From NCBI RefSeq assembly GCF_044704955.1, contig NC_091997.1:85684001-85748000 (forward strand): 64,000 bases of DNA, given 5' to 3'. The notes under the pieces are model-generated. The model had not been told where the DNA came from. It did no database searches and saw only the letters and a list, made by a program, of their open reading frames with translations. This DNA is from Pristiophorus japonicus. Its lineage: Eukaryota. A program made the translations under genes and the position numbers. Of this stretch, positions 1-63,845 are shown one piece after another. Numbering within the stretch: position 1 is the stretch's first letter; each line of letters opens with the position of its first letter.

Positions 1-141
1 AAAACATCACTGTGCCCTTATGAAGTTATCTTTTTTTTTTAAACTCTCTCAGAACAATATTTTGGCATATGTGACCATAATGATCAATTTCGTCCAAATA
101 TTTTACTGAATGATTGGTAGTTTTAGGCAAGGAATTGGATT

Positions 142-3100
142 AGAAACATAGAAACATAGAAAATAGGTGCAGGAGCAGGCCATTCAGCCCTTCTAGCCTG
201 CACCGCCATTCAATGAGTTCATGGCTGAACATGAAACTTCAGTACCCCCTTCCTGCTTTCTCGCCATAACCCTTGATCCCCCGAGTAGTAAGGACTTCAT
301 CTAACTCCCTTTTGAATATATTAAGTGAATTGGCCTCAACTACTTTCTGTGGTAGAGAATTCCACAGGTTCACCACTCTCTGGGTGAAGAAGTTTCTCCT
401 CATCTCGGTCCTAAATGGCTTACCCCTTATCCTCAGACTGTGACCCCTGGTTCTGGACTTCCCCAACATTGGGAACATTCTTCCTGCATCTAACCTGTCT
501 AAACCCGTCAGAATTTTAAACGTTTCCATGAGGTCCCCTCTCATTCTTCTGAACTCCAGTGAATACAAGCCCAGTTGATCCAGTCTTTCTTGATAGGTCA
601 GTCCCGCCATCCCGGGAATCAGTCTGGTGAATCTTCGCTGCACTCCCTCAATAGCAAGAATGTCCTTCCTCAGGTTAAGAGACCAAAACTGTACACAATA
701 CTCCAGGTGTGGCCTCACCAAGGCCCTGTACAACTGTAGCAACACCTCCCTGCCCCTGTATTCAAATCCCCTCGCTATGAAAGGCCAACATTCCATTTGC
801 TTTCTTAACCGCCTGCTGTACCTGCATGCCAACCTTCAATGACTGATGTACCATGACACCCAGGTCTCGTTGCACCTTCCCTTTTCCGAATCTGTCACCA
901 TTCAGATAATAGTCTGTCTCTCTGTTTTTACCACCAAAGTGGATAACCTCACATTTATCCACATTATACTTCATCTGCCATGCATTTGCCCACTCACCTA
1001 ACCTATCCAAGTCACTCTGCAGCCTAATAGCATCCTCCTCGCAGCTCACACTGCCACCCAACTTAGTGTCATCCGCAAATTTGGAGATACTGCATTTAAT
1101 CCCCTCGTCTAAATCATTAATGTACAATGTAAACAGCTGGGGCCCCAGCACAGAACCTTGCGGCACCCCACTAGTCACTGCCTGCCATTCTGAAAAGTAC
1201 CCGTTTACTCCTACTCTTTGCTTCCTGTCTGACAACCAGTTCTCAATCCACGTCAGCACACTACCCCCAATCCCATGTGTTTTAACTTTGCACATTAATC
1301 TCTTGTGTGGGACCTTGTTGAAAGCCTTCTGAAAGTCCAAATATACCACATCAACTGGTTCTCCTTTGTCCACTTTACTGGAAACATCCTCAAAAAATTC
1401 CAGAAGATTTGTCAAGCATGATTTCCCTTTCACAAATCCATGCTGACTTGGACCTATCATGTCACCATTTTCCAGATGCACTGCTATGACATCCTTAATA
1501 ATTGATTCCATCATTTTACCCACAACTGAGGTCAGGCTGACCGGTCTATAATTCCCTGTTTTCTCTCTCCCTCCTTTTTTAAAAAGTGGGGTTACATTGG
1601 CTACCCTCCACTCCATAGGAACTGATCCAGAGTCAATGGAATGTTGGAAAATGACTGTCAATGCATCCGCTATTTCCAAGGCCACCTCCTTAAGTACTCT
1701 GGGATGCAGTCCATCAGGCCCTGGGGATTTATCGGCCTTCAATTCCATCAATTTCCCCAACACAATTTCCCGACTAATAAAGATTTCCCTCAGTTCCCCC
1801 TCCTTACTAGACCCTCTGACCCCTTTTATATCCGGAAGGTTGTTTGTATCCTCCTTAGTGAATACCGAACCAAAGTACTTGTTCAATTGGTCTGCCATTT
1901 CTTTGTTCCCCGTTATGACTTCCCCTGATTCTGACTGCAGGGGACCTACGTTTGTCTTTACTAACCTTTTTCTCTTTACATACCTATAGAAACTTTTGCA
2001 ATCCGCCTTAATGTTCCCTGCAAGCTTCTTCTCGTACTCCATTTTCCCTGCCCTAATCAAACCCTTTGTCCTCCTCTGCTGAGTTCTAAATTTCTCCCAG
2101 TCTCCGGGTTCGCTGCTATTTCTGACCAATTTGTATGCCACTTCCTTGGCTTTAATACTATCCCTGATTTCCCTAGATAGCCACGGTTGAGCCACCTTCC
2201 CTTTTTTATTTTTACGCCAGACAGGAATGTACAATTGTTGTAATTCATCCATGCGGTCTCTAAATGTCTGCTATTGCCCATCCACAGTCAACCCCCTAAG
2301 TATCATTCGCCAATCTATCCTAGCCAATTCACGCCTCATACCTTCAAAGTTACCCTTCTTTAATTTCTGGACCATGGTCTCTGAATTAACTGTTTCATTC
2401 TCCATCCTAATGCAGAATTCCACCATATTATGGTCACTCTTCCCCAAGGGGCCTCGCACAATGAGATTGCTAATTAATCCTCTCTCATTACACAACACCC
2501 AGTCTAAGATGGCCTCCCCCCTAGTTGGTTCCTCAACATATTGGTCTAGAAAACCATCCTTTATGCACTCCAGGAAATCCTCCTCCACCGTATTGCTTCC
2601 AGTTTGGCTAGCCCAATTTATGTGCATATTAAAGTCACCCATTATAATTGCTACACCTTTATTGCATGCTCCCCTAATTTCCTGTTTGATGCCCTCCCCA
2701 ACATCCCTATTACTGTTTGGAGGTCTGTACACAACTCCTACTAACGTTTTTTGCCCTTTGGTGTTCTGCAGCTCTACCCATATAGATTCCACATCATCCA
2801 AGCTAATGTCTTTCCTAACTATTGCATTAATCTCCTCTTTAACCAGCAATGCTACCCCACCTCCTTTTCCTTTTATTCTATCCTTCCTGAATGTTGAATA
2901 ACCCTGAATGTTGAGTTCCCAGCCCTGATCATCCTGGAGCCAGGTCTCCGTAATCCCAATCACATCATATTTGTTAACATCTATTTGCACAATTAATTCA
3001 TCCACCTTATTGCGGATACTCCTTGCATTAAGACACAAAGCCTTCAGGCTTGTTTTTTTAACACCCTTTGTCCTTTTAGAATTTTGCTGTACAGTGGCCC

Positions 3101-5988: not shown

Positions 5989-6023
5989 TGATGACGGCAA
6001 AACTGAAATCCAGGCAGTAAAAT
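5989..6023 (+). CDS. Ig-superfamily receptor copy A, 35-nt cytoplasmic exon (DDGKTEIQAVK)
   Basis: Pyrimidine tract and cccag acceptor, T|gtaagt donor; identical to 43519-43553. Confidence 0.8.
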
Positions 6024-6112
6024 GTAAGTCGTGGCAATCTTTCAGTATCTTTCATTATCTGTCCCCACATGGAAGTGAAACCCATCAAACGCGATCTCCT
6101 CTTAATTTCTAG

Positions 6113-6378
6113 GCAGTGACCGCACGGACCATATACCGCAGGTTGAAACCTCTTTAGCCATTGAACTCAAACCAGACGGCCAATCGCAGCCCAAAGAGGA
6201 CAGTAAGGAGGATCCCGTTGCTCTGTCTAATGAGCAGACTTATTCTTTGATAGGTTGCCCGGGGACAGGGAGCCCAGGAGACACGGAGACAAGGTCTCGG
6301 CTGGAGGAAGATGATCCACAACCTGGCCCGTTAGAGATGGAAGAAAATCCTATTTATGCTAAAATAGAGGAAGCCTGA
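6113..6378 (+). CDS. Receptor copy A, terminal coding exon (QTYSLI ... ENPIYAKIEEA*)
   Basis: ttctag acceptor, open frame in the phase set by the preceding exon, TGA at 6376-6378. Differs from copy B by two replacements (I/V, R/W). Confidence 0.8.
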
Positions 6379-13264: not shown

Positions 13265-16200
13265 TAATACGTCCTTACTATACAGTATAAATGCACACAT
13301 AGAAATAGAAACATAGAAAATAGGTGCAGGAGTAGGCCATTCGGCTCTTCTAGCCTGCACCGCCATTCAATGAGTTCATGGCTGAACATGCAACTTCAGT
13401 ACCCCATTCCTGCTTTCTCACCATACCCCTTGATCCCCCTAGTAGTAAGGACTTCATCTAACTCCTTTTTGAATATATTTAGTGAATTGGCCTCAACAAC
13501 CTTCTGTGGTAGAGAATTCCACAGGTTCACCACTCTCTGGGTGAAGAAGTTTCTCCTCATTTCGGTCCTAAATGGCTTACCCCTTATCCTCAGACTGTGA
13601 CCCCTGTTCTGGACTTCCCCAACATTGGGAACATTCTTCCTGCATCGAACCTGTCTAAACCCATCAGAATTTTAAACGTTTCTATGAGGTCCCCTCTCAT
13701 TCTTCTGAACTCCAGTGAATACAAGCCCAGTTGATCCAGTCTTTCTTGATAGGTCAGTCCCGCCATCCCGGGAATCAGTCTGGTGAACCTTCGCTGCATT
13801 CCCTCAAAAGCAAGAATGTCCTTCCTCAAGTTAGGAGACCAAAACTGTACACAATACTCCAGGTGTGGCCTCACCAAGGCCCTGTACAACTGTAGCAACA
13901 CCTCCCTGCCCCTGTACTCAAGTCCCCTCGCTATGAAGGCCAACATGCCATTTGCTTTCTTAACCGCCTGCTGTACCTGCATGCCAACCTTCAATGACTG
14001 ATGTATCATGACACCCAGGTCTCATTGCACCTCCCCTTTTCCTAATCTGTCACCATTCAGATAATAGTCTGTCTCTCTGTTTTTACCACCAAAGTGAATA
14101 ACCTCACATTTATCCACATTATACTTCATCTGCCATGCATTTGCCCACTCACCTAACCTATCCAAGTCGCTCTGCAGCCTCATAGCATCCTCTTCACAGC
14201 TCACATTGCCACCCAACTTAGTGTCATCAGCAAATTTGGAGATACTACATTTAATCCCCTCGTCCAAATCATTAATGTACAATGTAAACAGCTGGGGCCC
14301 CAGCACAGAACCTTGCGGTACCCCACTAGTCACCGCCTGCCATTCTGAAAAGTACCCATTTACTCCTACTCTTTGCTTCCTGTCTGACAACCAGTTCTCA
14401 ATCCATGTCAGCACACTACCCCCAATCCCATGTGCTTTAACTTTGCACATTAATCTCTTGTGTGGGACCTTGTCGAAAGCCTTCTGAAAGTCCAAATATA
14501 CCACATCAACTGGTTCTCCCTTGTCCACTCTACTGGAAACATCCTCAAAAAATTCCAGAAGATTTGTCAAGCATGATTTCCCTTTCACAAATCCATGCTG
14601 ACTTGGACCTATCATGTCACCTCTTTCCAAATGCGCTGCTATGACATCCTTAATAATTGATTCCATCATTTTACCCACTACCGATGTCAGGCTGACCGGT
14701 CTATAATTCCCTGTTTTCTCTCTCCCTCCTTTTTTAAAAAGTGGGGTTACATTGGCTACCCTCCACTCGATAGGAACTGATCCAGAGTCAATGAAATGTT
14801 GGAAAATGATTGTCAATGCATCCGCTATTTCCAAGGCCACCTCCTTAAATACTCCTGGGGATTTATCGGCCTTCAATCCCATCAATTTCCCCAACACAAT
14901 TTCCCGACTAATAAGGATTTCCCTCAGTTCCTCCCCCTTACGAGACCTTCTGACCCGTTTTATATCCGGAAGGTTGTTAGTGTCCTCCTCAGTGAATACT
15001 GAACCAAAGTACTTGTTCAATTGGTCCGCCATTTCTTTGTTCCCCGTTATGACTTCCCCTGATTCTGACTGCAGGGGACCTACGTTTGTCTTAACTAACC
15101 TTTTTCTCTTTACATATCGACAGAAACTTTTGCAATCCGTCTTAATGTTCCCTACAAGCTTCTTCTCGTACTCAATTTTCCCTGCCCTAATCAAACCCTT
15201 TGTCCTCCTCTGCTGAGTTCTAAATTTCTCCCAGTCTCCGGGTTCGCTGCTATTTCTGGCCAATTTGTATGCCACTTCCTTGGCTTTAATACTATCCCTG
15301 ATTTCCCTTGATAGCCACGGTTGAGCCACCTTCCCTTTTTTATTTTTATGCCAGACAGGGATGTACAATTGTTGTAGTTCATCCATTGGGTCTCTAAATG
15401 TCTGCCATTGCCCATCCACAGTCAACCCCCTAAGTATCATTCGCCAATCTATCCTAGCCAATTCACGCCTCATACCTTCAAAGTTACCCTTCTTTAAGTT
15501 CTGGACCATGGTCTCTGAATTAACTGTTTCATTCTCCATCCTAATGCAGAATTCCACCATATTATGGTCACTCTTCATCAAGGGGCCTCGCACAACAAGA
15601 TTGCTAATTAATCCTCTCTCATTACACAACACCCAGTCTAAGATGGCCTCCCCCCTAGTTGGTTCCTCGACATATTGGTCTAGAAAACCACACGAGGCCC
15701 ATGCTTGAGAGAAAGTCACTCTGTGACCAGTAACCTTTATTCACGAGCACTCAAGTGATGAAGGTGGGTGGAGCTTCCCCTTTTATACCTGAAAGTCCAG
15801 GCTAGGAGTGTCTCTCACAAGTTCACCACCTAGTGGTCATTGTTCTCACAGTGTACAACTAAGGTCAGTTTATACATGGGTTACAATGATGGTTGAATAC
15901 ATAACATCACCTCCCCCCCGAAAGTCTTATTGGGATCACAGGTTGAGTCTCTCTGGTGGTTTACGCTCCCTTGTAGAGTGCCTGAGTTGGGGCTCCGGTT
16001 GTTGGGCGCTGGCCTGAGTGTCTGCTGTTTGCGGTGCCTCAGGCCTGTCCGGACTGCCCACAGTGACTGGGCTCTCCTCCACTTGGTTCCGGTGTTCGGT
16101 CACCTGTAGTGGAGTGAACTCGACATCGTGTTCTTCCTCTGCTACTTCTATGGGGTTGCTGAACCTCCTTTTTGTTTGAGTTGAGGACAAAGACAGGGTC

Positions 16201-24007: not shown

Positions 24008-27000
24008 TGTTGTGTATCTGTAAAGCATGCACTCCCATGTTCCACCATCCCAGCATCCCTTGGGAACACTCTATATAAGCCGGCCCCTAAGGCTTGTTCC
24101 TCACTCTGGAGTGTCTGATTAAAGACTGAGGTCACTGTTACTTTAACCTCCCAGTGTGCAGCCTCATAATAGGAACATAATAACTGGTGACGAGAATACA
24201 AATCCAACGCAAAGATGCAACAAACTGTGGGCATTCTGGAGAAGTTCTCGGAGGGTGAGGACTGGGAAGCCTATGTCGAACGGCTAGACCAGTACTTTGT
24301 AGCCAACGAGCTGGACGGAGAAGGAAGCGCTGCAAAAAGGAGAGCGGTCCTCCTCATGGTCTGCGGGGCACCGACCTACAGCCTCATGAGGAATCTTCTG
24401 GCTCTGGTGAAACCCACAGATAAGTCGTATGAGGAGTTGTATACACTGGTTCGGGAGCATCTTAACTCGAGCGAGAGTGTGCTGATGGCGAGGTATCGGT
24501 TCTACACGTGCCAGCGATCTGAAGGTCAGGAAGTGGCGAGCTACGTCGCCAAGCTAAGGCAACTTGCAGGACAATGTGAGTTTGATGGCTACCTGGAGCA
24601 AATGCTCAGAGACCTTTTTGTACTGGGCATTGGCCACGAGACCATCCTATGAAAACTTTTGACTTAGAGACACCGACCCTCAGTAAGGCCATTGCGATAG
24701 CACAGGCGTTTATGTCCACCAGTGATAACACCAAACAAATCTCTCAGTACGCAAGTGCTAGCAATGTTCATAAATTAACTGCAACTGTGTTTGCGAGCAG
24801 AAATGTACAGGCCAGAACCCACGAGTCTGCAGCTGCCAGCAGGCCTCAGGTGACCCAGATGACTCAGAGTCCCCAACAAAGGATGAATGCAAGGCAATTC
24901 ACACCTTGTTGGCGTTGTGGTGGCTTCCATTCAGCCTATTCATGCCACTTCAAAGGGTATGTTTGCAAGAGCTATGGAACAATGGGGCACCTCCAATGAG
25001 CTTGCAAGCTCTGCAAAACCTGCTAACCACCATGTGGCAGAGGAAGATCAGTCCATGGTGGGTCAAAGCAATTTCGAGCCTCAGAGAGAGGAGGCAGGTG
25101 CTGAAGTACACGGGGTGCACACATTTTCAACAAAATGTCCACCTATAATGCTAAACGTAAAATTGAATGCCTTACCTGTAGCCATGGAACTGGACACTGG
25201 CGCTAGCCAATCTATCATGAGCAAAAAGATGTTTGAGAGACTGTGGTGCAACAAAGCATTCAGACCAGCCCTGAGCCCCATCTACATGAAACTGAGAACG
25301 TACACCAAAGAGCTTATCACTGTCCTGGGCAGCGCCATGGTCAAGTTCACCTACGAGGGCACGGTGTACGCACTGCCACTCTGGATTGTCCCGGGCGATG
25401 GCCCCACACTGCTTGGAAGGAGCTAGCTGGGCAAAATCCGCTGGAACTGGAATGATATCCGAGCGCTATCACATGTCAATGAGGCCTCATGTACCCAGGT
25501 TCTTAACAAATTTCCTTCCTTTTTTCAGCCAGGCATTGGAAACTTTTCCGGGGCGAAGGTGCGGATCCATTTGGTCCCAGAGGCAGGACCCATTCACCAC
25601 AAGGTGCGAGCAGTACCTCACATGATGAGGGAGAGAGTGGAAATCGAGCTGGACAGGCTGCAACGCGAGGGCATCATCTCCCCAGTGGAATTCAGCGAGT
25701 GGGCCAGCCCGATTGTTCCAGTACTCAAAAGTGATGGCACGGTCAGGATTTGTGGCGATTATAAAGTAACTATTAATCGTTTCTCGCTACAGGACCAATA
25801 CCCGCTACCTAAGGAAGACGACTTATTTGCGACACTGGCAGGAGGCAAGACGTTCACCAAGCTCAACCTGACTTCAGCCTACATGACGCAGGAGCTGGAG
25901 GAGTCTTCGAAGGGCCTCATCTGCATCAACACTCACAAGGGACTGTTCATCGACAACAGATGCCCGTTTGGAATTTGGTTGGCTGCAGTGATTTTCCAGA
26001 GAAACATGGAGAGCCGACCCAAGTTGGTACCATAGACGGTGGTCTTTCAGGACGACATATTGGTCACGGGTTGGGACACCGCCAAGCACCTACAAAACCT
26101 GGAGGAGGTCCTCCAACGACTGGATCGCATAGTGCTGCGGCTGAAGAGGTCGAAATGCGTCTTCATGGCAACAGAAGTGGAATTTTTGGGGAGAAAGATC
26201 ATGGCGGACGGCATTCTGCCCACAGATGCCAAGACAGAGGCTATCAGGAACGCGCACAGGCCACAGAACGTCATGGAGCTGCGGTCGTTCCTGGGACTCC
26301 TCAACTATTTTGGTAACTTCATACCGGGGTTAAGCACTCTTTTAGAGCCCCTACATGTGTTATTGCGCAAAGGTGAGAACTGGGTATGGGGAAAAAACCA
26401 AGTAATTGCTTTTGAGAAAGCCAGAAACATTTTATGCTCCAACAAGCTGCTTGTATTGTATAACCCGTGTCAAAGACTTGTGCTAGCATGTGACGCGTCG
26501 TCGTACGGAGTTGGGTGTGTATTACAACAAGCTAACGTTGCGGGGAAGTTGCAACCTGTCGCCTATGCTTCCAGGAGCTTGTCTAAGGCCGAGAGGGCCT
26601 ACAGCATGATTGAGAAAGAGGCATTAGCGTGTGCGTTCGGAGTAAAGAAAATGCTTCAGTACCTGTTTGGCCTCAAATTTGAGCTGGAAACCGATCACAA
26701 GCCCCTCATATCCCTGTTCGCTGAAAACAAGGGGATAAATACTAATGCCTCAGCCCGCATACAAATATGGGCCCTCGTGCTATCAGCGTATAACTATACC
26801 ATCTGCCACAGGCCAGGCAGCGAGAACTGTGCGGATGCTCTCAGTCGGCTACCATTGCCCACCACGGGGGTGGAAATGGCGCAGCCTGCAAACTTGTTGA
26901 TGGTGGCGCAGCCCGCAGGTTTGTTGATGGTCATGGAAGCGTTTGATAAATGATAAATCACCTGTCACAGCCCGCCAGATTAGGACTTGGACCAGCCAAT

Positions 27001-28235
27001 ATTCTCTCCTGTCCCTAGTAAAAAACTGTGTACTGCATGGGAGCTGGGCCAGCATCCCCGTTGAAATGCAAGAGCCAATCAAGCCATTCCAGTGGCGAAA
27101 GGACGAGCTGTCCATTCAGGCAGACTGGCTGTTGTGGGGTAACCGCGTAGTGCTACCAAAAAAGGGCAGGGAGACGTTCATCTCAGATCTCCACAGCACA
27201 CATCTGGGTATAGTAATGATGAAAGCGATAGCCAGATCCCACATGTGGTGGCCCGGTATCGACTCTGACTTAGAGTCCTGTGTACGGCAATGCAGCGTGT
27301 GTGCTCAGTTGAGCAACGCACCCAGAGAGGCACCACTAAGTTTGTGGTCCTGGCCCTCCAGACCATGGTCGAGGATCCATGTCAACTATGCGGGCCCGTT
27401 TCTCAGTAAAATGTTCCTGGTGGTGGTGGATGCTTTTTCAAAATGGATTGAATGTGAAATAATGTCGAGAAGCACCGCCACCGCCACCATTGAAAGCCTG
27501 AGGGCCATGTTTGCCACCCACGGCCTGCCTGACATATTGGTCAGTAACAACGGGCCATGTTTCACCAGTGCCAAATTTAAAGAATTCATGAACCGCAATG
27601 GGATCAAACATGTCACCCTGTTTAAACCAGCCTGCAGTGGGCAGGCAGTGCGGGCAGTACAAACCATCAAACAGAGCCTTAAACGAGTCACAGAAGACTC
27701 ACTCCAAACCCGCCTGTCCCGAGCAGTGCTCAGCTACTGCACGAGACCCCACTCGTTCACAGGGGTGCCCCCGATTGAGCTACTCATGAAAAGGACACTT
27801 AAAACCAGACTCTCGCTGGTTCAGCTCAACCTGCATGATCAGGTAGAGAGCAGACGGCAGCAACAAATATTAAACGATGGTCGCGCCACTGTGTCACGGG
27901 AAATTGATCTGAATGACCCTCTGTATGAGCGAAACTATGGACATGGTCCCAAGTGGATCGCGGGCACGGTGATAGCTAAAGAAGGGACTAGGGTGTTTGT
28001 AGTCAAACTAGACAATGGACAAATTTTCAGAAAGCACCTGGACCAAACGAGGCTGCGGTTCACAGGCTGCCCTGAACAACCCACAGCAGACACCACCTTT
28101 TTCGAGCCCACAACACACACCCACTGTCTATAAGCCGGCCCCGAAGGCCTGTTCCTCACTCTGGAGTGTCTGATTAAAGACTGAGGTCACTTTAACCTCC
28201 CTGTGTGAAGCCTCATCTGTGTTAGGAACACAATA
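24008..28235 (+). mobile_element. Gypsy LTR retrotransposon 2, unit 1 copy (gag-pol with stops; PPT and U3 of 3' LTR deleted)
   Basis: 5' LTR about 24008-24182, PBS TGGTGACGAG, TSD AAAGG (24003-24007, 28236-28240); gag 24215.., LDTGA, FQDD, RNase H and integrase ORFs 26039..26953 and 26943..28133. Confidence 0.95.
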
Positions 28236-28388: not shown

Positions 28389-28443
28389 ATGGCGCTTGGT
28401 GCTCTGTTTGTGGGTCTTTTCCTTCTGTTCCAACATGTTGTAG
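28389..28443 (+). CDS. Receptor copy B exon 1, signal peptide (MALGALFVGLFLLFQHVVG)
   Basis: AAATGG Kozak context, hydrophobic core, G|gtaagg phase-1 donor matching exon 2. Confidence 0.8.
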
Positions 28444-35389: not shown

Positions 35390-35782
35390 GATCCACTTAT
35401 CTCTTCTTCCTAAGACCAGGAGATGTCACCACTCTGCAATGCAACGTGCCCACCGGTGCTGGGAATAAAGTAACCTTGTGCAACTCCAGTGATCCCGGGT
35501 CAGAAATGGGTAAAATAAAATGTAAGAACGAAAAGCCATGTTATGAAAATATCGGTCCTCAGGGGAAAAAAGGACACAGTGAGCCAGAGTGTACAAAATG
35601 CAAATTAAATGACCATGAAACGGAGTCTCTGACATTCGCTGTGAAGACGATTAACTCGATGGTGTTTACCTGCATGGCTCAAGATTCCACAGAAGGAGGG
35701 GCATTGGAGTGTCCGTCCTGGCTCACACTGTCACAGCCGGGATGTGAAAACCACGACTTGTTCTTTGTGATAACCCAGGATG
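35390..35782 (+). CDS. Receptor copy B exon 2, atypical Cys-rich Ig-like domain D1
   Basis: Strong pyrimidine tract and cgcag acceptor, G|gtaggt donor, 393 nt, phase 1-1; PGDVTTLQC and VFTC resemble Ig B and F strands, 77 codons apart. Confidence 0.85.
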
Positions 35783-36166
35783 GTAGGTGCACTGGGGCAA
35801 TATCGCGGGAGGGATCGGGGCAGGTATTGGGGGAGGGATTGTTGTGGGAACATTAGGGGTAATTTAAGGTAAGGTATTAGGCGAGATATTAGAGGAGATA
35901 TTAGAGAGACGTTGGGGAGATATTAGAAGAGGTTTTCGGGCAGATAGCTGTCATTGCCTTCATTAAGATGAAATTACCTTGTGTGTAGATAAAGAGTAAT
36001 AGTGAGAAGTAGCTGGCACGGGTTTCAAACTGTCCAGGAGGTAAGAGACATGGTAGGTGGGGGAATGCGGTGGATGCAGTGTACATGGACATTAGGAAAT
36101 CCTTCGACTAAGTATCACATTGGAGATTATTATATTAACAAATATTCTTTTCAATGTTGTTTATAG

Positions 36167-36643
36167 ATTCAACTGATATATTTTTGATTAAAGAAAATTT
36201 GTCGCTGACAGTGTCAGAGGGAGAGAATGTGACTTTACCCTGCCAGTTTGAGAATATAAAACCACTCCCCTTCACTCTGTTTTGGTTCAGATCTGGAAAC
36301 GTCAACAAGTGTCTGCACTCTGTTCACACTGAGGATCATGCTGCACATTCTAACACACGTTGCTGTGTGGATAGAGAGTCATCACAAAGAATCTCTACCC
36401 AAAGCTCACACAATCCTTTGGTTAGCCGCCAGTCTCACAACCTTACTATTCACTCAGCGGGCCTGGTGGACACTGGGAGGTATCTCTGTGCTGTACACAG
36501 TCAGGATTCAGGGAAACCTGTCTGGAAGATTGCAGCAAACATCTCCCTTGTGACAGAGCCCAGTGCAGAAACTTCAGACACTCCCACCTCAACATCTGGA
36601 ATATCCTCAGAGAGCAGCAGCATAACTTGTACAAATACTCAAA
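36167..36643 (+). CDS. Receptor copy B exon 3, V-set Ig domain D2 plus S/T stalk
   Basis: EGENVTLPC, LFWFR, LTIHSAGLVDTGRYLC; ttatag acceptor, A|gtaagt donor, 477 nt, phase 1-1. Confidence 0.93.
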
Positions 36644-36847
36644 GTAAGTGATGCAATCTAAAACATAATGTGAACCATTTAATATCAATAATTCAAGGTG
36701 TGAGATTCCAGGTCCATTGTCCAGTTTGTACCCTTTAGAAGTTACTTTGATTTCCTTCCTTTGCCATTGCACTATTCTAGATTGTAACCAGAAAAGTATG
36801 TTCCTCAGCCCAGGTAACCAGTGTAATGAGCAGCAGGAAATCTTCAG

Positions 36848-36913
36848 ACACTCCCACCTCAACATCTGGAATATCCTCAGTGACCGGAAGCATTACTCCT
36901 ACAAATATACAAA
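36848..36913 (+). CDS. Possible optional 66-nt stalk exon (TPTSTSGISSVTGSITPTNIQ)
   Basis: Duplicate of the 3' end of exon 3 including the gtaagt donor; in frame from a weak ttcag acceptor. Confidence 0.35.
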
Positions 36914-39990: not shown

Positions 39991-40197
39991 AACAGAAATT
40001 AAGCGAGAGATTCAAGAGCAATTGTCCACTTTGTACCCATTAGACGTTGGTTCGATTTTCTTCCTTCGCAATTGCACTTTTCCAGATTGTAACAGAAAAG
40101 TATCTTCCTCGGCCCAGGTAACCAGTGTGATCAGCTGTACATATAAGACGGCATTGCACAAACTGAACTTAATGTTGCTTCTCCTATGCATTTCCAG

Positions 40198-40317
40198 ACC
40201 CTGCCATCACTGTGAACGTAGCCATAGTGTGTCTGATTGTACTCATTTGCATTGTTGGGATAGTTTGCATTATTGGGGTAGTTTGCCGAAGGAAACGACA
40301 ATCTGTCAAAGGTAAAG
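40198..40317 (+). CDS. Receptor copy B transmembrane exon
   Basis: tttccag acceptor; phase-1 frame gives PAITVNVAIVCLIVLICIVGIVCIIGVVC-RRKRQSVKGK; donor aag|gtaagc (alternative in-phase donor after 40311). Confidence 0.9.
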
Positions 40318-40427: not shown

Positions 40428-40449
40428 GATCCTCAGCACCAGGACCCAG
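40428..40449 (+). CDS. Receptor copy B 22-nt micro-exon (GSSAPGP)
   Basis: gaag acceptor, cag|gtaggg donor; supplies the phase 1 to 2 shift needed to read the next exon without a stop. Confidence 0.65.
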
Positions 40450-40546: not shown

Positions 40547-40581
40547 GGCCGGTGATGTGCAGCTGACACAAGTGGCTGAAT
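40547..40581 (+). CDS. Receptor copy B 35-nt exon (RAGDVQLTQVAE)
   Basis: ctgtag acceptor, T|gtaagt donor; only the phase 2-1 frame is open. Confidence 0.7.
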
Positions 40582-40675
40582 GTAAGTGACTAGAATTGCT
40601 GGCCAGCTCTTCCGATCCTGGCCCTTTGAGAGTTGAAACTAAAAGCACACATGGTGTTCCCGCCCTTCTGTCCAG

Positions 40676-40862
40676 GTTTCCCGTACTCTGTGGTTCCCAG
40701 GAAGGATCAGAGCGATGACAACGAGCCTGTTGCGTACTCGGTGACAAGAGTTCCAACGCCGTCGAGCCAGCCAAGGCCTGGTGAAGGAATGGAGAGCACT
40801 GGCCCAAACATTGACTCTACAGAGCATGTGTACTGTTTGATCGAGGAGTCAATGGTCAAAGG
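40676..40862 (+). CDS. Receptor copy B cytoplasmic exon with FPYSVV, VAYSVT, HVYCLI
   Basis: tgtccag acceptor, GG|gtaagc donor, 187 nt, phase 1-2; lies within ORF 40633..40866. Confidence 0.85.
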
Positions 40863-43518: not shown

Positions 43519-43553
43519 TGATGACGGCAAAACTGAAATCCAGGCAGTAAAAT
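43519..43553 (+). CDS. Receptor copy B 35-nt exon (GDDGKTEIQAVK)
   Basis: Long pyrimidine tract and cccag acceptor, T|gtaagt donor, phase 2-1. Confidence 0.8.
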
Positions 43554-43626
43554 GTAAGTCGTGGCAATCTTTCAGTATCTTTCATTATCTGTCCCCACAT
43601 GGAAGTGAAACCCTCTTAATTTCTAG

Positions 43627-43892
43627 GCAGTGACCGCACGGACCATGTACCGCAGGTTGAAACCTCTTTAGCCATTGAACTCAAACCAGACGGCCAATCG
43701 CAGCCCAAAGAGGACAGTAAGGAGGATCCCGTTGCTCTGTCTAATGAGCAGACTTATTCTTTGATAGGTTGCCCGGGGACAGGGAGCCCAGGAGACACGG
43801 AGACAAGGTCTTGGCTGGAGGAAGATGATCCACAACCTGGCCCGTTAGAGATGGAAGAAAATCCTATTTATGCTAAAATAGAGGAAGCCTGA
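43627..43892 (+). CDS. Receptor copy B terminal coding exon (QTYSLI, ENPIYAKIEEA*)
   Basis: ttctag acceptor; 266 nt open to TGA at 43890-43892. The nine exons sum to 1590 nt (529 aa plus stop). Confidence 0.82.
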
Positions 43893-47765: not shown

Positions 47766-50700
47766 TAATACGACCTTTCTATACAGTTTAAATGCACACG
47801 AGGCCCATGCTTGAGAGAAGGTCACTCTGTGACCAGTAACCTTTATTCACGAGCACTCAAGTGATGAAGGTGGGTGGAGCTTCCCCTTTTATACCTGAAA
47901 GTCCAAGTGAGGAGTGTCTCTCACAAGTTCACCACCTAGTGGTCATTGCTCTCACAGTGTACAACTAAGGTCAGTTTATACATGGGTTACAATGATGGTT
48001 GAATACATAACATCACCTCCCCCCCGAAAGTCTTATTGGGATCACAGGTTGAGTCTCTCTGGTGGTTTACGCTCCCTTGTAGAGCCCCTGAGTTGGGGCT
48101 CTGGTTGTTGGGCGCTGGCCTGAGTGTCAGCTGTTTGCGGTGCCTCAGGCCTGTCCGGACTGCCCACAGTGACTGGGCTCTCCTCCACTTGGTTCCGGTG
48201 TTCGGTCACCTGTGGTGGAGTGAACTCGACATCGTGTTCTTCCTCTGCTTCTTCGATGGGGTTGCTGAACCTCCTTTTTGTTTGATCTACATGTTTGCGG
48301 CAGATTTATCCATTGGTAAGTTTAACTATCAGAATCCTATTCCCCTCTTTGGCAATCACAGTGCCTGTGAGCCATTTGGGCCCTGCAGCGTAGTTGAGGA
48401 CAAAGACAGGGTCATTGACATCGATACCTCGCACCCTCGCATTCCTGTCATGGTAGTCACATTGTGACTGACGCCTGCTCTCGACAATTTCTTTCATGGT
48501 GGGATGTATAAGAGATAACCTGGTTTTGAGCGTCCTTTTCATTAGCAGCTCTGCGGGTGGAACCCCTGTGGTCGGGATCTGTAGGCAAACAGGAGGCGTG
48601 ATAAGCGGCTTTGTAGGGAACCCCCTTGGATTCTGAGCATTCCCTGTTTGATTATCTGCACTGCTCATTACGCCTGCCCATTAGAGGCCGGCTTGAACGG
48701 TGCCGTTCTGACATGGTTAATTCCATTGCCTGCCATGAAGTCCTGGAATTCAGTGCTTGTGGTCATGGTCACTGACCAAGACATCCGGTAGACCATGGGC
48801 GGCGAACATTGCCCGTAGACTTTCTACCGTGGCAGAGGATGTGCTTGAATTTAAAATGTCACACTCGATCCATTTGGAGTAGGCGCCTACTACAACCAAA
48901 AACATTTTTCCGATGAAAGGAACTGCATAGTCCACATGGATGTGTGACCATGGCTTGGTGGCCCAGGACCAGGGGCTAAGGACGGCTTCCCAGGCCCCTT
49001 TCCCAGCTGGGCACACATATTGTACCTGCGAACACAAAGTTCCAGGTCTGCATCTATCCCTGGCCACCAAACGTGTGACCTGGCAATTGCCTTCATCATG
49101 ACAATGCCCGGGTGCTCGTTGTGGAGTTCTCTGATGAACATCTCTCTGCCCATCTGGGGCATGACTACTCGGTTTCCCCACAGTAGACAATCGGCCTGAA
49201 TCGAGAGTTCATCCCTGCACCTGTGAAATGGTTTAAATTCCTCAGGGCATGCCCCGTACGTGGCTGCCCAGTCCCCATTCAGGACACATTTCTTGACTAA
49301 AGACAGTAGCGGGTCTCTATTTGTCCAGACCTTAATCTGACGGGCTGTCACAGGTGAGCCTTCGCTTTCGAAAGCTTCAACAGCCATGATCATCTCAGCA
49401 GCCTGCTCGGTAGCCCCCTCAGTGGTGGCTAGTGGGAGCCCGCTGAGTGCATCGGTGCAGTTTTCAGTGCCCGGTCTGTGCCGAATTGTATAGTCATAGG
49501 CGGCTAACGTGAGTGCCCACCTCTGTATGCGGGCCGATGCGTTTGCATTTATGGCCTTGTTGTCGGCCAAAAGGGACCTTAGGGGTTTGTGATCTGTCTC
49601 CAGCTCAAATTCCCTGCCAAACAAGTACTGGTGCATTTTCTTTACTGTGTATACACATGCAAGCGCCTCCTTTTCTACCATCCCGTAGCCCCTTTCTGCC
49701 TGGGACAGACTTCTGGAGGCATAAGCTACTGGCTGTAACTGACCCTTGGCATTAACATGCTGCAACACACACCCGACACCATAGGACGACGCATCGCATG
49801 TTAAAATAAGTTTCTTACATGAGTAATATAGCGTTAACAGATTGTTGGAGCATAACAAATTGCGTGCTCTATCAAAAGCCCTTTCCTGGCGGTCCCCCCA
49901 GACCCATTCGCGACCTTTGCGTACGAGCACGTGTATTGGCTCTAACAGCGTGCTCAATTTGGGAAGAAAGTTACCAAAATAGTTCAGGAGCCCCAGGAAC
50001 GAACGCAGCTCCGTCTTGTTACGGGATCTGGGTGCTCTCTGGATCGCTTCCGTCTTGGACGCAGTAGGTCTGATCCCGTCTGATGCTACCCTCATCCCCA
50101 GGAATTCTACCTCTGGAGCTAGGAAGACGCACTTCGCCTTTTTCAGTCGCAGCCCTACCCGGTCCAGTCAGCGTAGCACCTCCTCCAGGTTGCGGAGGTG
50201 TTCTTCAGTATCGCGACCCATGATGAGGATGTCGTCTTGAAAAACCACGGTCCCTGGAATCGACTTGAGGAGGCTTTCCATATTTCGTTGAAAGATCGCG
50301 GCGGCCGAACAAATCCCGAACGGACATCTGTTATACTTAAACAACCCCTTGTGTGTCGTGATGGTGGTCAGCTTCTTCGACTTACTCGCCAGCTCCTGGG
50401 TCATGTAAGCTGAGGTCAGGTCCAATTTTGAAAAAAGTTTGCCACCAGATAGCGTCGCAAAGAGGTCTTCCGCTCTCAGTAGCGGCTACTGGTCTTGGAT
50501 TGACACCCGATTGATGGTGGCCTTGTAATCACCACATATCCTGACCGACCCATCCGCCTTGAGCACTAGCACAATCGGGCTCGCCCAGTCACTGAATTCG
50601 ACTGGCGAGATGATGCCTTCCCTCAGCAGGCGGTCCAATTCGCCTTCTATCTTTTCCCGCATCAAGTACGGCACCGCTCTGGCCTTGTGGTGTACTGGCC

Positions 50701-56511: not shown

Positions 56512-56566
56512 ATGGCGCTTGGTGCTCTGTTTGTGGGTCTTTTCCTTCTGTTCCAACATGTTGTAG
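56512..56566 (+). CDS. Receptor copy C exon 1, signal peptide
   Basis: Identical to 28389-28443, G|gtaagg donor. Confidence 0.8.
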
Positions 56567-58617: not shown

Positions 58618-59817
58618 ATGGGTGCTGCATTGTCAACACCACGTATTATGCAATGGTTTGCCATCAATTCACTGCATAGGAGAGAATTGATTAGAGCTCA
58701 CTGCACCAGGAACATCGTAACCCGTAGGTTGCTGGGCAGGAGATCTTACCCACGTCAACAATATCGAGCCAGGCGCTCGTACCTGGACATGAGCGAGGCT
58801 GATTGTGTGAAAAGGCTGCGTTCACTGAGATCTGTGATATGGTGAGAGCAGATTTGCAGCCCAAAAGCAGACTGCCAACTGCCCTGTCTGTTGCAGTGAA
58901 GGTAACAGCTGCACTTTCTTTCTATGCCTCGGGATCGTTTCAGGCTACAACTGGAGATGTGTGTGCCATCTCTCAACGTGCAATACATGCCTGCATTTAC
59001 CAGGTCACGGCTGCACTGTATGCGCGGAGGAATGACCATCAATTTCCCAATGACCGCACAAGCGATCCATGAGAGGGCTGTGGGCTTCTTCAGGATTGCT
59101 GGCTTCCCAAAGGTACAGGGCTGCATTGATTGTACCCACATAGCCTTGCGAGCACCTGTGGAGGATTCTGAGCAGTACCGAAATAGGAAAGGTTTCCACT
59201 CTATCAATGTGCAGCTCGTGTGTGACGACAAGCAGCGCATCATGTCAGTCGATGCGAGATACCCTGGCAGCACCCACGATGCGTTCATCCTACGCGACAG
59301 CGTTCTATCTGACATGTTTGAGCAGCAGCCAGAAGGGCAGAGCTGGCTACTGGGAGACAAAGGGTACGGCCTGACCATCTGGCTCATGACACCCCTACGC
59401 ATGATACGGACAGAAGCTGACCGTCAATACAACATGGCGCACATTGCGACACGCATCATCATTGAGAGATCCATTGGCATATTGAAACAGCGTTTCGGAT
59501 GCCTGGACCATTCCGGAGGACAGTTGCTATACTCTCCTCAGATTGTCGGTCACTTCACTGTTGTGTGCTGCATGCTTCATAACTTAGCCATCATGAGGCA
59601 GCAGGAGCTGGTAATGGAACCAGAAGACCCACGTGAGGGTCCAGTACCTGATGATAGTATTATGGAAGAGCAGGATGAGGATGATGACGACGATCAGGAA
59701 AGCATGCAAGTGCCTGATGCCGGAGCACGAGGTCGGAGGAGGGCTGTCCATCGTGCTCCTTTAACGATTGCTCGAGCCTTGTGCCAGCAGCTCATCCGTG
59801 AACGCTTCAACTACTGA
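58618..59817 (+). pseudogene. Harbinger (HARBI1-like) DDE transposase, frameshifted
   Basis: GCIDCTHI, NRKGFHSINVQLVCD, YPGSTHDAFI, LLGDKGY, IERSIGILKQRF, CCMLHN; N-terminus split over 58618..58845 and 58803..59072. Confidence 0.92.
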
Positions 59818-60299: not shown

Positions 60300-61800
60300 C
60301 ATGTCTCATCCATATCTCAGTGAATGTTCACTTCCTCATAGGGGTGTCATTTGATTGGCCGGGCTGTGTGCCCTTATTGCAGCAGCTACCTCAACCAGGC
60401 CCTCCCTGACGGCCTGTGCCGTCATTTGCATGCCCCCCCGACGGCCTGTACTGTTGATTGCACTCTCTCGGACATTCCCTCCCTAAGTTCCCGTGCCATT
60501 ACTGCTTTTTCTCCTGTCAGGACCGACAACTCTTCACCCACTGCACTGACGCCACCGATGAGTGATCGGGTAAGCTCATTGGTCTCCATACCCAACGCCA
60601 CAACCTGAGCCGCATCTGTTGCATGCTGCATCTCAGGAGAGCGTGTCTCCAATCTCCTTCTCCTCTGCCTGGGTCTGCCTCGTGGCACCACTACACTGGG
60701 AGGCGCGGGCACGGACAGTGGGACGCTCTGTGTTGCAAGCGGCACCACTACACAGGGAGGCGCGGGCTGGGACTGTGGGACGCTCTGTGTTCCAGACGGC
60801 AGAACTAGAGGGAGAGACTCGGGTTGAAATGCTGGGATGCTCTGTGTTGCAGACGGCAGAACTAGAGGGAGAGGCTCGGGTTGGAATGCTGGAATGCTCT
60901 GTGTTGCAGACGGCAGAACTAGAGGGAGAGGCTCGGGCTGGAACGGTAGGACGCTCTGTGTTGCAGACGGCAGTACTAGAGAGAGAGGCTCGGGCTGGGA
61001 TGGTGGGGCGCTCGGTGTTCCAGACAACAGCACTCGAGTGCGAGCCATGGGCTGGGATGTTGGACGAATGAGTATAAACTGCTCCATGATATCAGCAGCA
61101 GCACTGGGACCCGCAGCGTCGGAATCAAAACCATAGTAGATGGAGCCAGAACCTATGCGAGAGGGAGGAGCAGGCTCGGACGGTAGTGCACTGACTGTAG
61201 AAAGCTGCATTATACCAGCAGCACCACTGGGACCCGCAACATCGGAAGCAAAACCATGGAAGGTGGAACCAAGACCTATGCTAGGGGTTGAAACTCTGAT
61301 GCCCCTTGATGGGGGCTCAAACATTAAATTGGAAGCTCTCCCCTGCAGACATTTCAGTCATCGCTGCCATCATCCAGTCTGGTTCATCCACATCTGGTTG
61401 ATCTGTATCTTCAGGATCCTCAGGGTTGGCAGCAGCAGCACCACCTTCATCATCATCATCATCATCAACATCATCATCATCATCATGTTCTGCAAAATAC
61501 ATCAGAACAGTCAAATGTTTAACAGCAAGGGAGGGGGCCGGATGGATGGCATGAGTACTCTCACACATAGCAGGTTAGGCAGCAGGTTGATTTAAAGGGC
61601 CACGATGCATTTTCAGGACTTACCCTCTTCCTCGTGTGCAGGCCCAGCTTGTGCTGTACTGATTGCTTTTCTCCATGTACCACTCATCATAGCAGCTACC
61701 CTCTGTTCCAAGGGTGTCAGTGGATGCAGATTGGGCATGCCTCCTCCTGTCCGAGTTGCCTCCCTTTTGTTGTGGGCCAATTTCTTCTGCAAAGAGTAAA
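60300..61800 (-). pseudogene. 3' part of the Harbinger accessory gene (Myb/SANT-type by position)
   Basis: Convergent ORFs 60422..61324 and 61317..61568 with acidic run, Pro/Ser repeats and coiled-coil-like end; the Myb domain itself is not seen. Confidence 0.6.
60690..61030 (-). repeat. 60-bp coding tandem repeat (about 5-6 copies)
   Basis: GCTCTGTGTTGCAGACGGCAGAACTAGAG recurs at about 60-bp spacing; encodes [19 protein letters not shown]-like units. Confidence 0.9.
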
Positions 61801-63443: not shown

Positions 63444-63845
63444 GATCCACTTATCTCTTCTTCCGAGGACCAGGAGATGTCACCACTCTGCAATGCAACG
63501 TGCCCACCGGTGCTGGGAATAATGTAACCTTGTGCAGCTCCAGTGATGCCGGGTCAGGAATGGGTGAAATAAAATGTCAGCACCCAAAGAACGAGAAGCC
63601 ATGTGATGAAAATATCGGTCCTCAGGGAAGAAAAGGATACAGTGAGCCAGAGTGTACAAAATGCAAATTACATGACGACCAAACAGAGTCTCTGACATTC
63701 GCTGTGAAGACGATTAACTCGATGGTGTTTACCTTCATGGCTCAGGATTCCACAGAAGGAGGGGCATTGGAGTGTCCGTCCTGGCTCACACTGTCACAGT
63801 CGGGATGTGAAAACCACGACTTGTTCTTTGTGATAACCCAGGATG
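63444..63845 (+). CDS. Receptor copy C exon 2, Cys-rich Ig-like D1 variant
   Basis: Same splice sites as copy B, 402 nt open frame, 15 replacements and a QHP insertion. Confidence 0.85.

What the first reader, a model, noticed from the sequence alone, without database searches (positions are those of the whole stretch)
63444..63845. Paralog divergence is concentrated in D1, including loss of the putative F-strand cysteine
Seen (manual count): copies B and C differ in exon 2 by about 20 substitutions (15 amino-acid changes, about 5 silent) plus an in-frame 9-bp insertion (QHP). Thirteen of the 15 changes lie in the first two thirds, many change charge, and TGC becomes TTC at 63734-63736 (VFTC to VFTF). 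Exon 1 is identical between B and C, and the terminal exon differs at only 2 of 266 nt between A and B. Inference: diversification of the ligand-binding surface or gene conversion from another paralog. A 3:1 ratio is near neutral expectation, so positive selection is not shown and copy C could be decaying.
Basis: partly seen in the sequence, partly recalled or inferred. Interest (0 to 1): 0.7.

Follow-up and report, generated by a model that had tools for sequence, protein, structure and literature searches.

The report
Two ectodomain types, shark paired receptor
This exon belongs to a ten-gene shark cell-surface receptor cluster in which two versions of the whole outer part sit on almost identical signalling tails; the version that lost a conserved cysteine is shared with a short-tailed, likely activating partner, a known pattern for paired immune receptors, and the strongest change is in the second domain, not the first.

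Summary
The counts are right: 20 substitutions (15 amino-acid, 5 silent), a 9-bp indel, TTC at 63734-63736. The headline is not. Against copy B, exon 2 (D1) differs by 5.1%, intron 2 by about 13%, the D2 exon by 8.3%, and membrane and tail exons by 1% or less. D1 dN/dS is 0.86, with no significant clustering. The 9 bp were lost in B, not gained in C. The window lies in a ten-gene sawshark array of an unnamed shark receptor family with long tyrosine-motif tails and one short-tailed gene. Phe replaces Cys in four long-tailed genes and the short-tailed gene; 17 of 17 aligned sequences from other sharks keep Cys. In six species short and long forms group by species: concerted evolution of paired receptors. 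The real hotspot is D2: 15 of 18 changes lie in CDR-like loops on a conserved frame. Phe-type transcripts are spliced. Copy C itself lost its last two exons, and its own expression is not shown. D1's Ig fold is likely but unproven (AlphaFold failed twice). The scan reported this family before on neighbouring copies.

The parts
63444..63845 (+). Copy C (array gene 7) exon 2, cysteine-rich D1, Phe type, 8 Cys
63734..63736 (+). TTC (Phe) at a position that is Cys in genes 1, 2, 4, 6, 8 and in all other sharks aligned
63578..63586 (+). 9 bp present in C and in B-type gene 4, deleted in genes 2, 6, 8 (short AAG repeat at the ends in gene 4)
56512..56566 (+). Copy C exon 1, predicted signal peptide, identical to B
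28389..28443 (+). Copy B (gene 6) exon 1
35390..35782 (+). Copy B exon 2, D1, Cys type, 9 Cys (TGC at 35671-35673)
35783..36166 (+). Copy B intron 2; about 13% different from C in its unique part, more than exon 2
36167..36643 (+). Copy B exon 3, V-set Ig domain D2 plus start of the Ser/Thr stalk
   Evidence: PF07686, 32.9 bits, cut-off 26
36325..36363 (+). D2 CDR2-like loop of B; 15 of 39 nt differ from copy C (whose loop lies just beyond the window end, at 64655-64693 on the same count)
36809..36913 (+). Copy B exon 4, stalk
40198..40311 (+). Copy B exon 5, uncharged predicted membrane segment; 1 of 114 nt differs from C
40428..40449 (+). Copy B 22-nt tail exon needed for the reading frame; the matching exon is spliced in RNA laid on copy C
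40547..40862 (+). Copy B tail exons 6 (40547-40581) and 7 (40676-40862), three tyrosine motifs
43519..43892 (+). Copy B exons 8 (43519-43553) and 9 (43627-43892), two more tyrosine motifs; absent from copy C
5989..6378 (+). Copy A (gene 5, Phe type) exons 8 and 9
141..2556 (-). Reverse-transcriptase repeat in intron 7 of copy A; with the copy at 13300-15690 it marks the ends of the part that is missing behind copy C
13300..15690 (-). Second copy of that repeat (95% alike), downstream of copy A

Best explanation
Copies B and C carry two older versions of the whole ectodomain block (exons 2-4) on nearly identical leader, membrane and tail exons, likely because gene conversion and unequal crossing-over keep reshuffling parts of a paired-receptor array. 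Shown: the ten-gene array, the divergence profile, Phe in genes 3, 5, 7, 9 and 10, the C ectodomain closer to short-tailed gene 10 than to B, loop-focused change in D2, spliced Phe-type and short-tail transcripts. Inferred: long-tailed genes inhibit through tyrosine motifs; gene 10 activates through an adaptor bound by its membrane Arg/Asp; C-type genes and gene 10 bind the same ligand while B binds another or an older one; selection acted on the D2 loops while D1 drifted under loose constraint and tolerated the lost cysteine, probably held by its other cysteines. Copy C is a tail-shortened member of this type.
For: Profile B vs C: 1.6% (upstream+E1), 2.0% (intron 1 start), 5.1% (E2), 12.7-16.7% (intron 2), 8.3% (D2), 0.9% (TM exon), 0.4% (intron 5 to E7). 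C vs gene 10: E2 2.2%, D2 3.1%, last 1000 nt of intron 1 0.8%, but TM exon 32%. DNA trees: B type on a long branch for E2 and E3, nearly collapsed for the TM-to-E7 region. Ectodomain protein tree of 23 rows: the short form groups with same-species long forms in 6 of 6 species that have both, ultrafast bootstrap 100 for each species clade. D2: 15 of 18 amino-acid changes in 31 of 120 loop positions (p=5e-7); frame pN 0.015 vs pS 0.063; loops pN 0.24 vs pS 0.09; 14 polarised D2 changes on the C side against 4 on the B side (p=0.03; 5 unpolarised left out). Genes 3, 5, 9 have open 557-aa frames. RNA-like run X5 shows the C-type exon 2-3 joint at the shifted acceptor and the Phe codon; X5 and X6 show gene 10's membrane exon joined to its short last exon.
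Against: pN>pS in the D2 loops is not significant (p=0.11), and silent change is also high in the CDR2-like loop (3 of 9.3 sites, p=0.014; two of the three lie in doubly hit codons), so one block replacement could mimic selection. 7 of 23 D2 changes hit columns invariant in 9 outgroups, as many as chance gives (expected 8.0), which also fits relaxed constraint. Loop borders were set by me from landmarks after I had seen the data. C and gene 10 still differ at 6 D1 and 9 D2 nonsynonymous sites, and their intron 2 ends differ by 16.7%. No ligand, adaptor or signalling was tested. Gene-10-specific D1 and D2 letters were not seen in the RNA contigs. The direction of exchange is unknown.
Confidence: 0.65

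Rival explanations
1. Diversifying selection acts specifically on D1 as the ligand-binding surface.
For: D1 is the more variable domain between species (18 of 130 columns invariant against 44 of 127 in D2). The youngest differences in exon 2 are all amino-acid changes: 3 of 3 for gene 4 vs 6 and 3 of 3 for gene 5 vs 7. 8 of 15 changes alter charge.
Against: dN/dS 0.86; exon 2 pN (15/303) is below intron 2 divergence (p=0.008); no clustering (scan p=0.06 and 0.76); 6 of 6 nonsynonymous is unremarkable when about 78% of sites are nonsynonymous.
Confidence: 0.1
2. The C lineage is decaying: the lost cysteine destabilises D1, constraint is relaxed, and copies multiplied by drift.
For: The Cys is kept in 17 of 17 outgroup sequences. 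D2 changes hit invariant columns at the chance rate. Copy C lost exons 8-9, gene 1 has a stop just after its membrane segment, and the C-type exon 3 acceptor moved by 6 nt. No gene-7-specific transcript was seen: the spliced C-type contig carries the gene 3/5/9 letter at L046:1249.
Against: The D2 frame is conserved (pN 0.010-0.015 against intron 2 0.127, p about 1e-5). No stop or frameshift in exons 1-9 of genes 3, 5, 9. Spliced transcripts exist. Gene 10, whose membrane type is kept across sharks, carries the same Phe.
Confidence: 0.17
3. D1 is not an Ig domain, so the lost cysteine is not an F-strand cysteine and may matter less (this changes the label, not the mosaic history).
For: No Pfam family for D1 at E<=1, no meaningful PDB sequence match, D1 vs D2 profile probability 0.07%, AlphaFold pLDDT 35.0 and 30.6.
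Against: ESM Atlas features put V-set clusters at 0.89-0.91 for two homologues (leads only, 153-171 of 256 features shared). The listed Foldseek rows for the poor model are Ig-fold proteins by their titles (best E=0.15; unreliable). Sevengill-shark D1 has Trp 12-13 residues after the first Cys; phase-1 exon of Ig-domain size.
Confidence: 0.15
4. The Phe or the near-identical copies are assembly errors.
For: Blocks of 26-41 kb are 99.1-99.9% alike; the exact copy number rests on one assembly.
Against: Phe appears in a DNA contig (X1, perhaps the assembly's own sample) and in contigs of samples S2 and S4. Units differ by distinct insertions and deletions.
Confidence: 0.03

Closest known systems
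Paired opposing receptors with merohomogenisation (KLRC, Ly49, PIR; PMC3210942, abstract and first part of Discussion read)
   Same: Ectodomains group by species while the two signalling ends stay distinct.
   Different: Unrelated sequence family; here two ectodomain types coexist among the long-tailed genes and only one matches the short-tailed gene.
CD300a/CD300c (PMC12447643, abstract and 12 passages read)
   Same: Long tyrosine-motif tail against short tail with an acidic membrane residue; Ser/Thr stalk; gene conversion of the ectodomain.
   Different: CD300 has one V domain and Glu; this has a cysteine-rich D1 plus V-type D2, with Asp in 5 of 7 and an outer Arg in 6 of 7 short forms. No CD300 chain appeared among the PDB matches.
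CEACAM32 escape from concerted evolution (PMC7042247, abstract only)
   Same: Leader and intron sequence homogenised while Ig-domain exons stay different, as for B against C.
   Different: Different family; no distinct tissue pattern is shown here.
Skate MDIR (three passages of PMC3031540; the MDIR paper itself was not read)
   Same: Cartilaginous-fish multigene activating/inhibitory Ig receptors.
   Different: MDIRs are described as CD300/TREM/pIgR-like; no skate or ray protein was among the 25 hits. MDIR sequences were not compared directly.
CD200R, CD96, PD-1 V domains (ESM Atlas cluster names)
   Same: Feature-level likeness to D1 (0.91); the tail ends in an NPxY-like motif as in CD200R (recalled).
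   Different: No alignment support; synteny not established.

Membership tests
Paired opposing IgSF receptors | Long-tailed and short-tailed genes side by side with near-identical ectodomains | tested here: met
   Genes 3/5/7/9 vs gene 10: 94-96% protein identity in D1 and D2; same pattern in 5 other species
Paired opposing IgSF receptors | ITIM-like tyrosine motifs in the long tail | tested here: met
   Five tyrosine motifs in 7 complete genes, several fitting the ITIM consensus quoted in PMC12447643; sequence only
Paired opposing IgSF receptors | Charged membrane residue in the short form | tested here: met
   Asp in 5 of 7, outer Arg in 6 of 7 short forms
Paired opposing IgSF receptors | Shared ligand and opposite signals | not testable with these tools
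   Needs cell assays
Merohomogenised pairs | Ectodomains cluster by species | tested here: met
   6 of 6 species with both forms
Merohomogenised pairs | Signalling parts cluster by type across species | tested here: inconclusive
   Seen by eye in the aligned membrane segments; no tree was built for them
Ig V-set domain (D1) | Profile match to PF07686 or clan | tested here: not met
   0 families at E<=1
Ig V-set domain (D1) | B-strand Cys, C-strand Trp, F-strand Cys | tested here: inconclusive
   Both Cys kept in outgroups; Trp at the expected place only in Heptranchias; C type has neither that Trp nor the second Cys; strand assignment unproven
Ig V-set domain (D1) | Beta-sandwich fold | tested here: inconclusive
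   pLDDT 35.0 and 30.6; weak Ig leads
Ig V-set domain (D2) | Profile match, Cys-Trp-Cys core, D-x-G-x-Y-x-C motif | tested here: met
   PF07686 above cut-off; core kept in B and C
CD300/MDIR | Sequence relationship and synteny | not tested
   No MDIR sequence at hand; neighbouring genes not identified
Pseudogene (copy C) | Stops, frameshifts or lost exons | tested here: inconclusive
   Exons 1-7 open for 457 aa, exons 8-9 deleted; own transcript not shown

The most novel reading that the evidence does not exclude
The Phe-type D1 is a working Ig-like domain with neither the core tryptophan nor the core disulfide, the new Phe filling the core. Together with rebuilt D2 loops that would face D1, it forms a new binding site at the D1-D2 hinge, which the activating gene tracks, while the B type has escaped homogenisation and keeps the old shark specificity.
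Probability: 0.22. Interest if true: 0.65.

Novelty: new member of a known kind. Interest (0 to 1): 0.4.

Why it matters
It extends concerted evolution of paired receptors to an unnamed family found across sharks, and gives a natural pair of D1 variants (Cys and Phe) and of D2 loop sets for asking how an Ig-like domain survives loss of a conserved cysteine and where the ligand binds. The mechanism itself is well known from mammals, so the surprise is moderate.

Tried and rejected
Pfam, PDB and D1-against-D2 profile searches did not place D1. The D1 profile found 5 shark proteins and 1 bacterial repeat protein (rejected as chance) among 1.84 billion representatives. No donor for the C-type D2 loop was found: 6 of 6 genome hits lie in the array, and the best other ungapped match in the fetched DNA was 26 of 39; both searches are insensitive. 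A V-set search scored 150 of 1720 candidates, none on C21, so synteny is open. No holder was on record as RNA; X5-X7 were read as RNA from their GT..AG joints. Contig depth was not used to rank genes or count copies. The database's alternative last exon for copy C lies 13 kb downstream in a repeat present in front of most units and was not tested against reads. In one search the 22-nt exon for gene 1 was mis-located; its stop at residue 341 lies before that exon, so the result stands. No codon site model was run: only six distinct ectodomains and no DNA from other sharks. Literature searches for the family found no description, in a library limited to open PMC papers and bioRxiv; one search gave nothing useful. 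No supplements were read.

Full report
Observation. Exon 63444-63845 is a phase-1 exon with AG/GT ends. Against its paralog at 35390-35782 it has 20 substitutions, 15 nonsynonymous and 5 synonymous, and a 9-bp indel. The codon at 63734-63736 is TTC against TGC in B. Exon 1 is identical and the last exon differs at 2 of 266 between A and B. Thirteen of 15 changes lie in the first two thirds, but p=0.08, and window scans find no significant cluster (p=0.06 for residues, 0.76 for bases). dN/dS is 0.86.

The locus. A genome search with exon 2 gave 11 hits: ten on C21 between 85.55 and 85.84 Mb and one fragment on C22. A search with D2 gave ten, all on C21. I number the genes 1-10; A is 5, B is 6, C is 7. 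Each has a leader exon, a cysteine-rich D1 exon, a V-set D2 exon, a Ser/Thr stalk and a membrane exon. Genes 2-6, 8 and 9 have open frames of 557-565 aa with five tyrosine motifs. Gene 10 has a different membrane exon with Arg and Asp and a short tail. Gene 1 stops just after its membrane segment. B's D1 is 100% identical to Pristiophorus japonicus records. All relatives found were uncharacterised or loosely named shark proteins: 25 hits at E<=1e-10 among 7990 candidates, none from a ray, chimaera or bony fish.

Where B and C differ. From 5' to 3': 5/305 upstream and exon 1, 18/900 at the start of intron 1, 1/89 at its end (most of intron 1 does not align), 20/393 exon 2, 17/134 and 18/108 in parts of intron 2, 32/387 D2, 1/114 membrane exon, 2/547 from intron 5 to exon 7; intron 3 6/164; stalk exon 9 of 93. 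The diverged block is exons 2-4, and D1 is its least diverged coding part.

Direction of change. The Cys is present in 17 of 17 non-sawshark D1 sequences in the alignment, in two more seen later, and in the C22 fragment, which joins the end of exon 2 to the start of exon 3 like a retrocopy. Phe is therefore derived. It is in genes 3, 5, 7, 9 and 10. The 9 bp are present in B-type gene 4 and matched by residues in most outgroups, so genes 2, 6 and 8 lost them.

Mosaic history. Copy C is closer to short-tailed gene 10 than to B in exon 2 (2.2% against 5.1%) and D2 (3.1% against 8.3%), and shares most of intron 1 with it. At the membrane exon this flips: 0.9% to B, 32% to gene 10. In a tree of 23 ectodomains the short form groups with same-species long forms in all six species that have both (the duplicated sevengill protein was cut to its first repeat). 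This is the pattern named merohomogenisation in PMC3210942 (abstract and first part of Discussion read) and reported for CD300a/c in PMC12447643 (abstract and passages read). B against C recalls CEACAM32, where leader and introns are converted but Ig exons are not (PMC7042247, abstract only). Which gene was donor is not resolved.

The real hotspot. In D2, aligned to T-cell receptor V-alpha, 15 of 18 amino-acid differences fall in the three CDR-like loops, 31 of 120 positions (p=5e-7). Frame pN is 0.015 and pS 0.063; loop pN is 0.24 and pS 0.09. One loop has 15 differences in 39 bases (0 of 10,000 permutations). Fourteen of 18 polarised D2 changes are on the C side (5 could not be polarised). 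Against this: pN>pS in the loops is not significant (p=0.11), silent change is also high in that loop, invariant columns are hit at the chance rate, and I drew the loop borders after seeing the data. No donor sequence was found. In a two-domain receptor these loops would face D1; hinge-binding by KIR, LILR and Fc receptors is recalled, not looked up.

Is C decaying? Exons 1-7 are open for 457 aa. Exons 8-9 are missing: about 13 kb were removed between two 95% alike reverse-transcriptase repeats, whose counterparts lie at window 141-2556 and 13300-15690. C keeps three of five tyrosine motifs, and read-through of exon 7 meets a stop at once. Runs X5-X7 show GT..AG joints, so I read them as RNA. 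X5 has the C-type exon 2-3 joint at an acceptor shifted by 6 nt, and both Phe and Cys codons; X6 has a contig identical to the gene 7/9 version of 5' D1. The spliced C-type contig in X5 carries the gene 3/5/9 letter, so copy C's own transcript is not shown. X5 and X6 join gene 10's membrane exon to its short last exon with no differences. Contigs drop rare variants and tissues are unknown.

Is D1 an Ig domain? Probably, but it is not shown. Pfam, PDB and profile comparisons are blank. AlphaFold failed twice. The Atlas gives V-set leads at 0.89-0.91, and the poor model's weak matches are Ig-fold proteins. Heptranchias has Trp where an Ig core Trp would be; sawshark has Leu. If the fold is Ig, the C type lacks both core marks and keeps eight cysteines. 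Cysteine pairing could not be settled: positions 30 and 70 are lost together in Heptranchias and 50 and 67 in Hemiscyllium, but single losses also occur. Natural Ig domains without this bond (CD2, CEACAM N domains) are recalled.

Verdict. Counts confirmed, headline not supported. The feature is one part of a two-type ectodomain mosaic in an unnamed shark paired-receptor family: a new member of a known kind. Searches found no description of the family in the open library. Two earlier notes of this scan on genes 8 and 10 reached the same family reading; they are not independent evidence. Added here are the divergence profile, the D2 loop hotspot, the sharing of Phe with the short-tailed gene, the RNA support and the deletion behind copy C.

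Noticed in passing
L043 (G000:C22:22063355-22063524, minus strand): Fragment joining the 3' half of exon 2 to the first codons of exon 3, like a retrocopy; it keeps the cysteine.
   Followed up: partly
L014 (gene 1 membrane exon, about C21:85552218-85552331): Stop codon right after the membrane segment although tail exons are present; D1 has ten cysteines. A database model (P0027) gives this ectodomain a B-type tail.
   Followed up: partly
L046:340-545, run X7 record 27: A contig with the Phe codon, a gene-1-type letter and a B-type exon 3 start: a recombinant allele or a chimeric contig.
   Followed up: no
L046:544-1828 joint, run X6: Exon 2 spliced past exon 3, giving a D1-only form; database isoforms P0003, P0004, P0007 and P0011 also lack D2.
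   Followed up: no
window 36167-36643: B-type genes have a cysteine in the stalk that C-type genes lack (6 against 5 Cys in exon 3); short forms have one or two beside the membrane.
   Followed up: no
window 40100-40130: Remnant of a stalk-exon start with the acceptor AG changed to GG, just before the membrane exon.
   Followed up: no
window 58906-59817 and 60422-61357: DDE_Tnp_4 transposase frame in intron 1 of copy C with an opposite-strand frame of no Pfam family beside it.
   Followed up: partly
window 16860-17975, 26036-28133, 48890-50167: LTR-retrotransposon-type pol pieces (RNase H, integrase) between the genes.
   Followed up: no
P0006 (Heptranchias perlo): Short-tailed form with the D1-D2 unit duplicated in tandem.
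   Followed up: no
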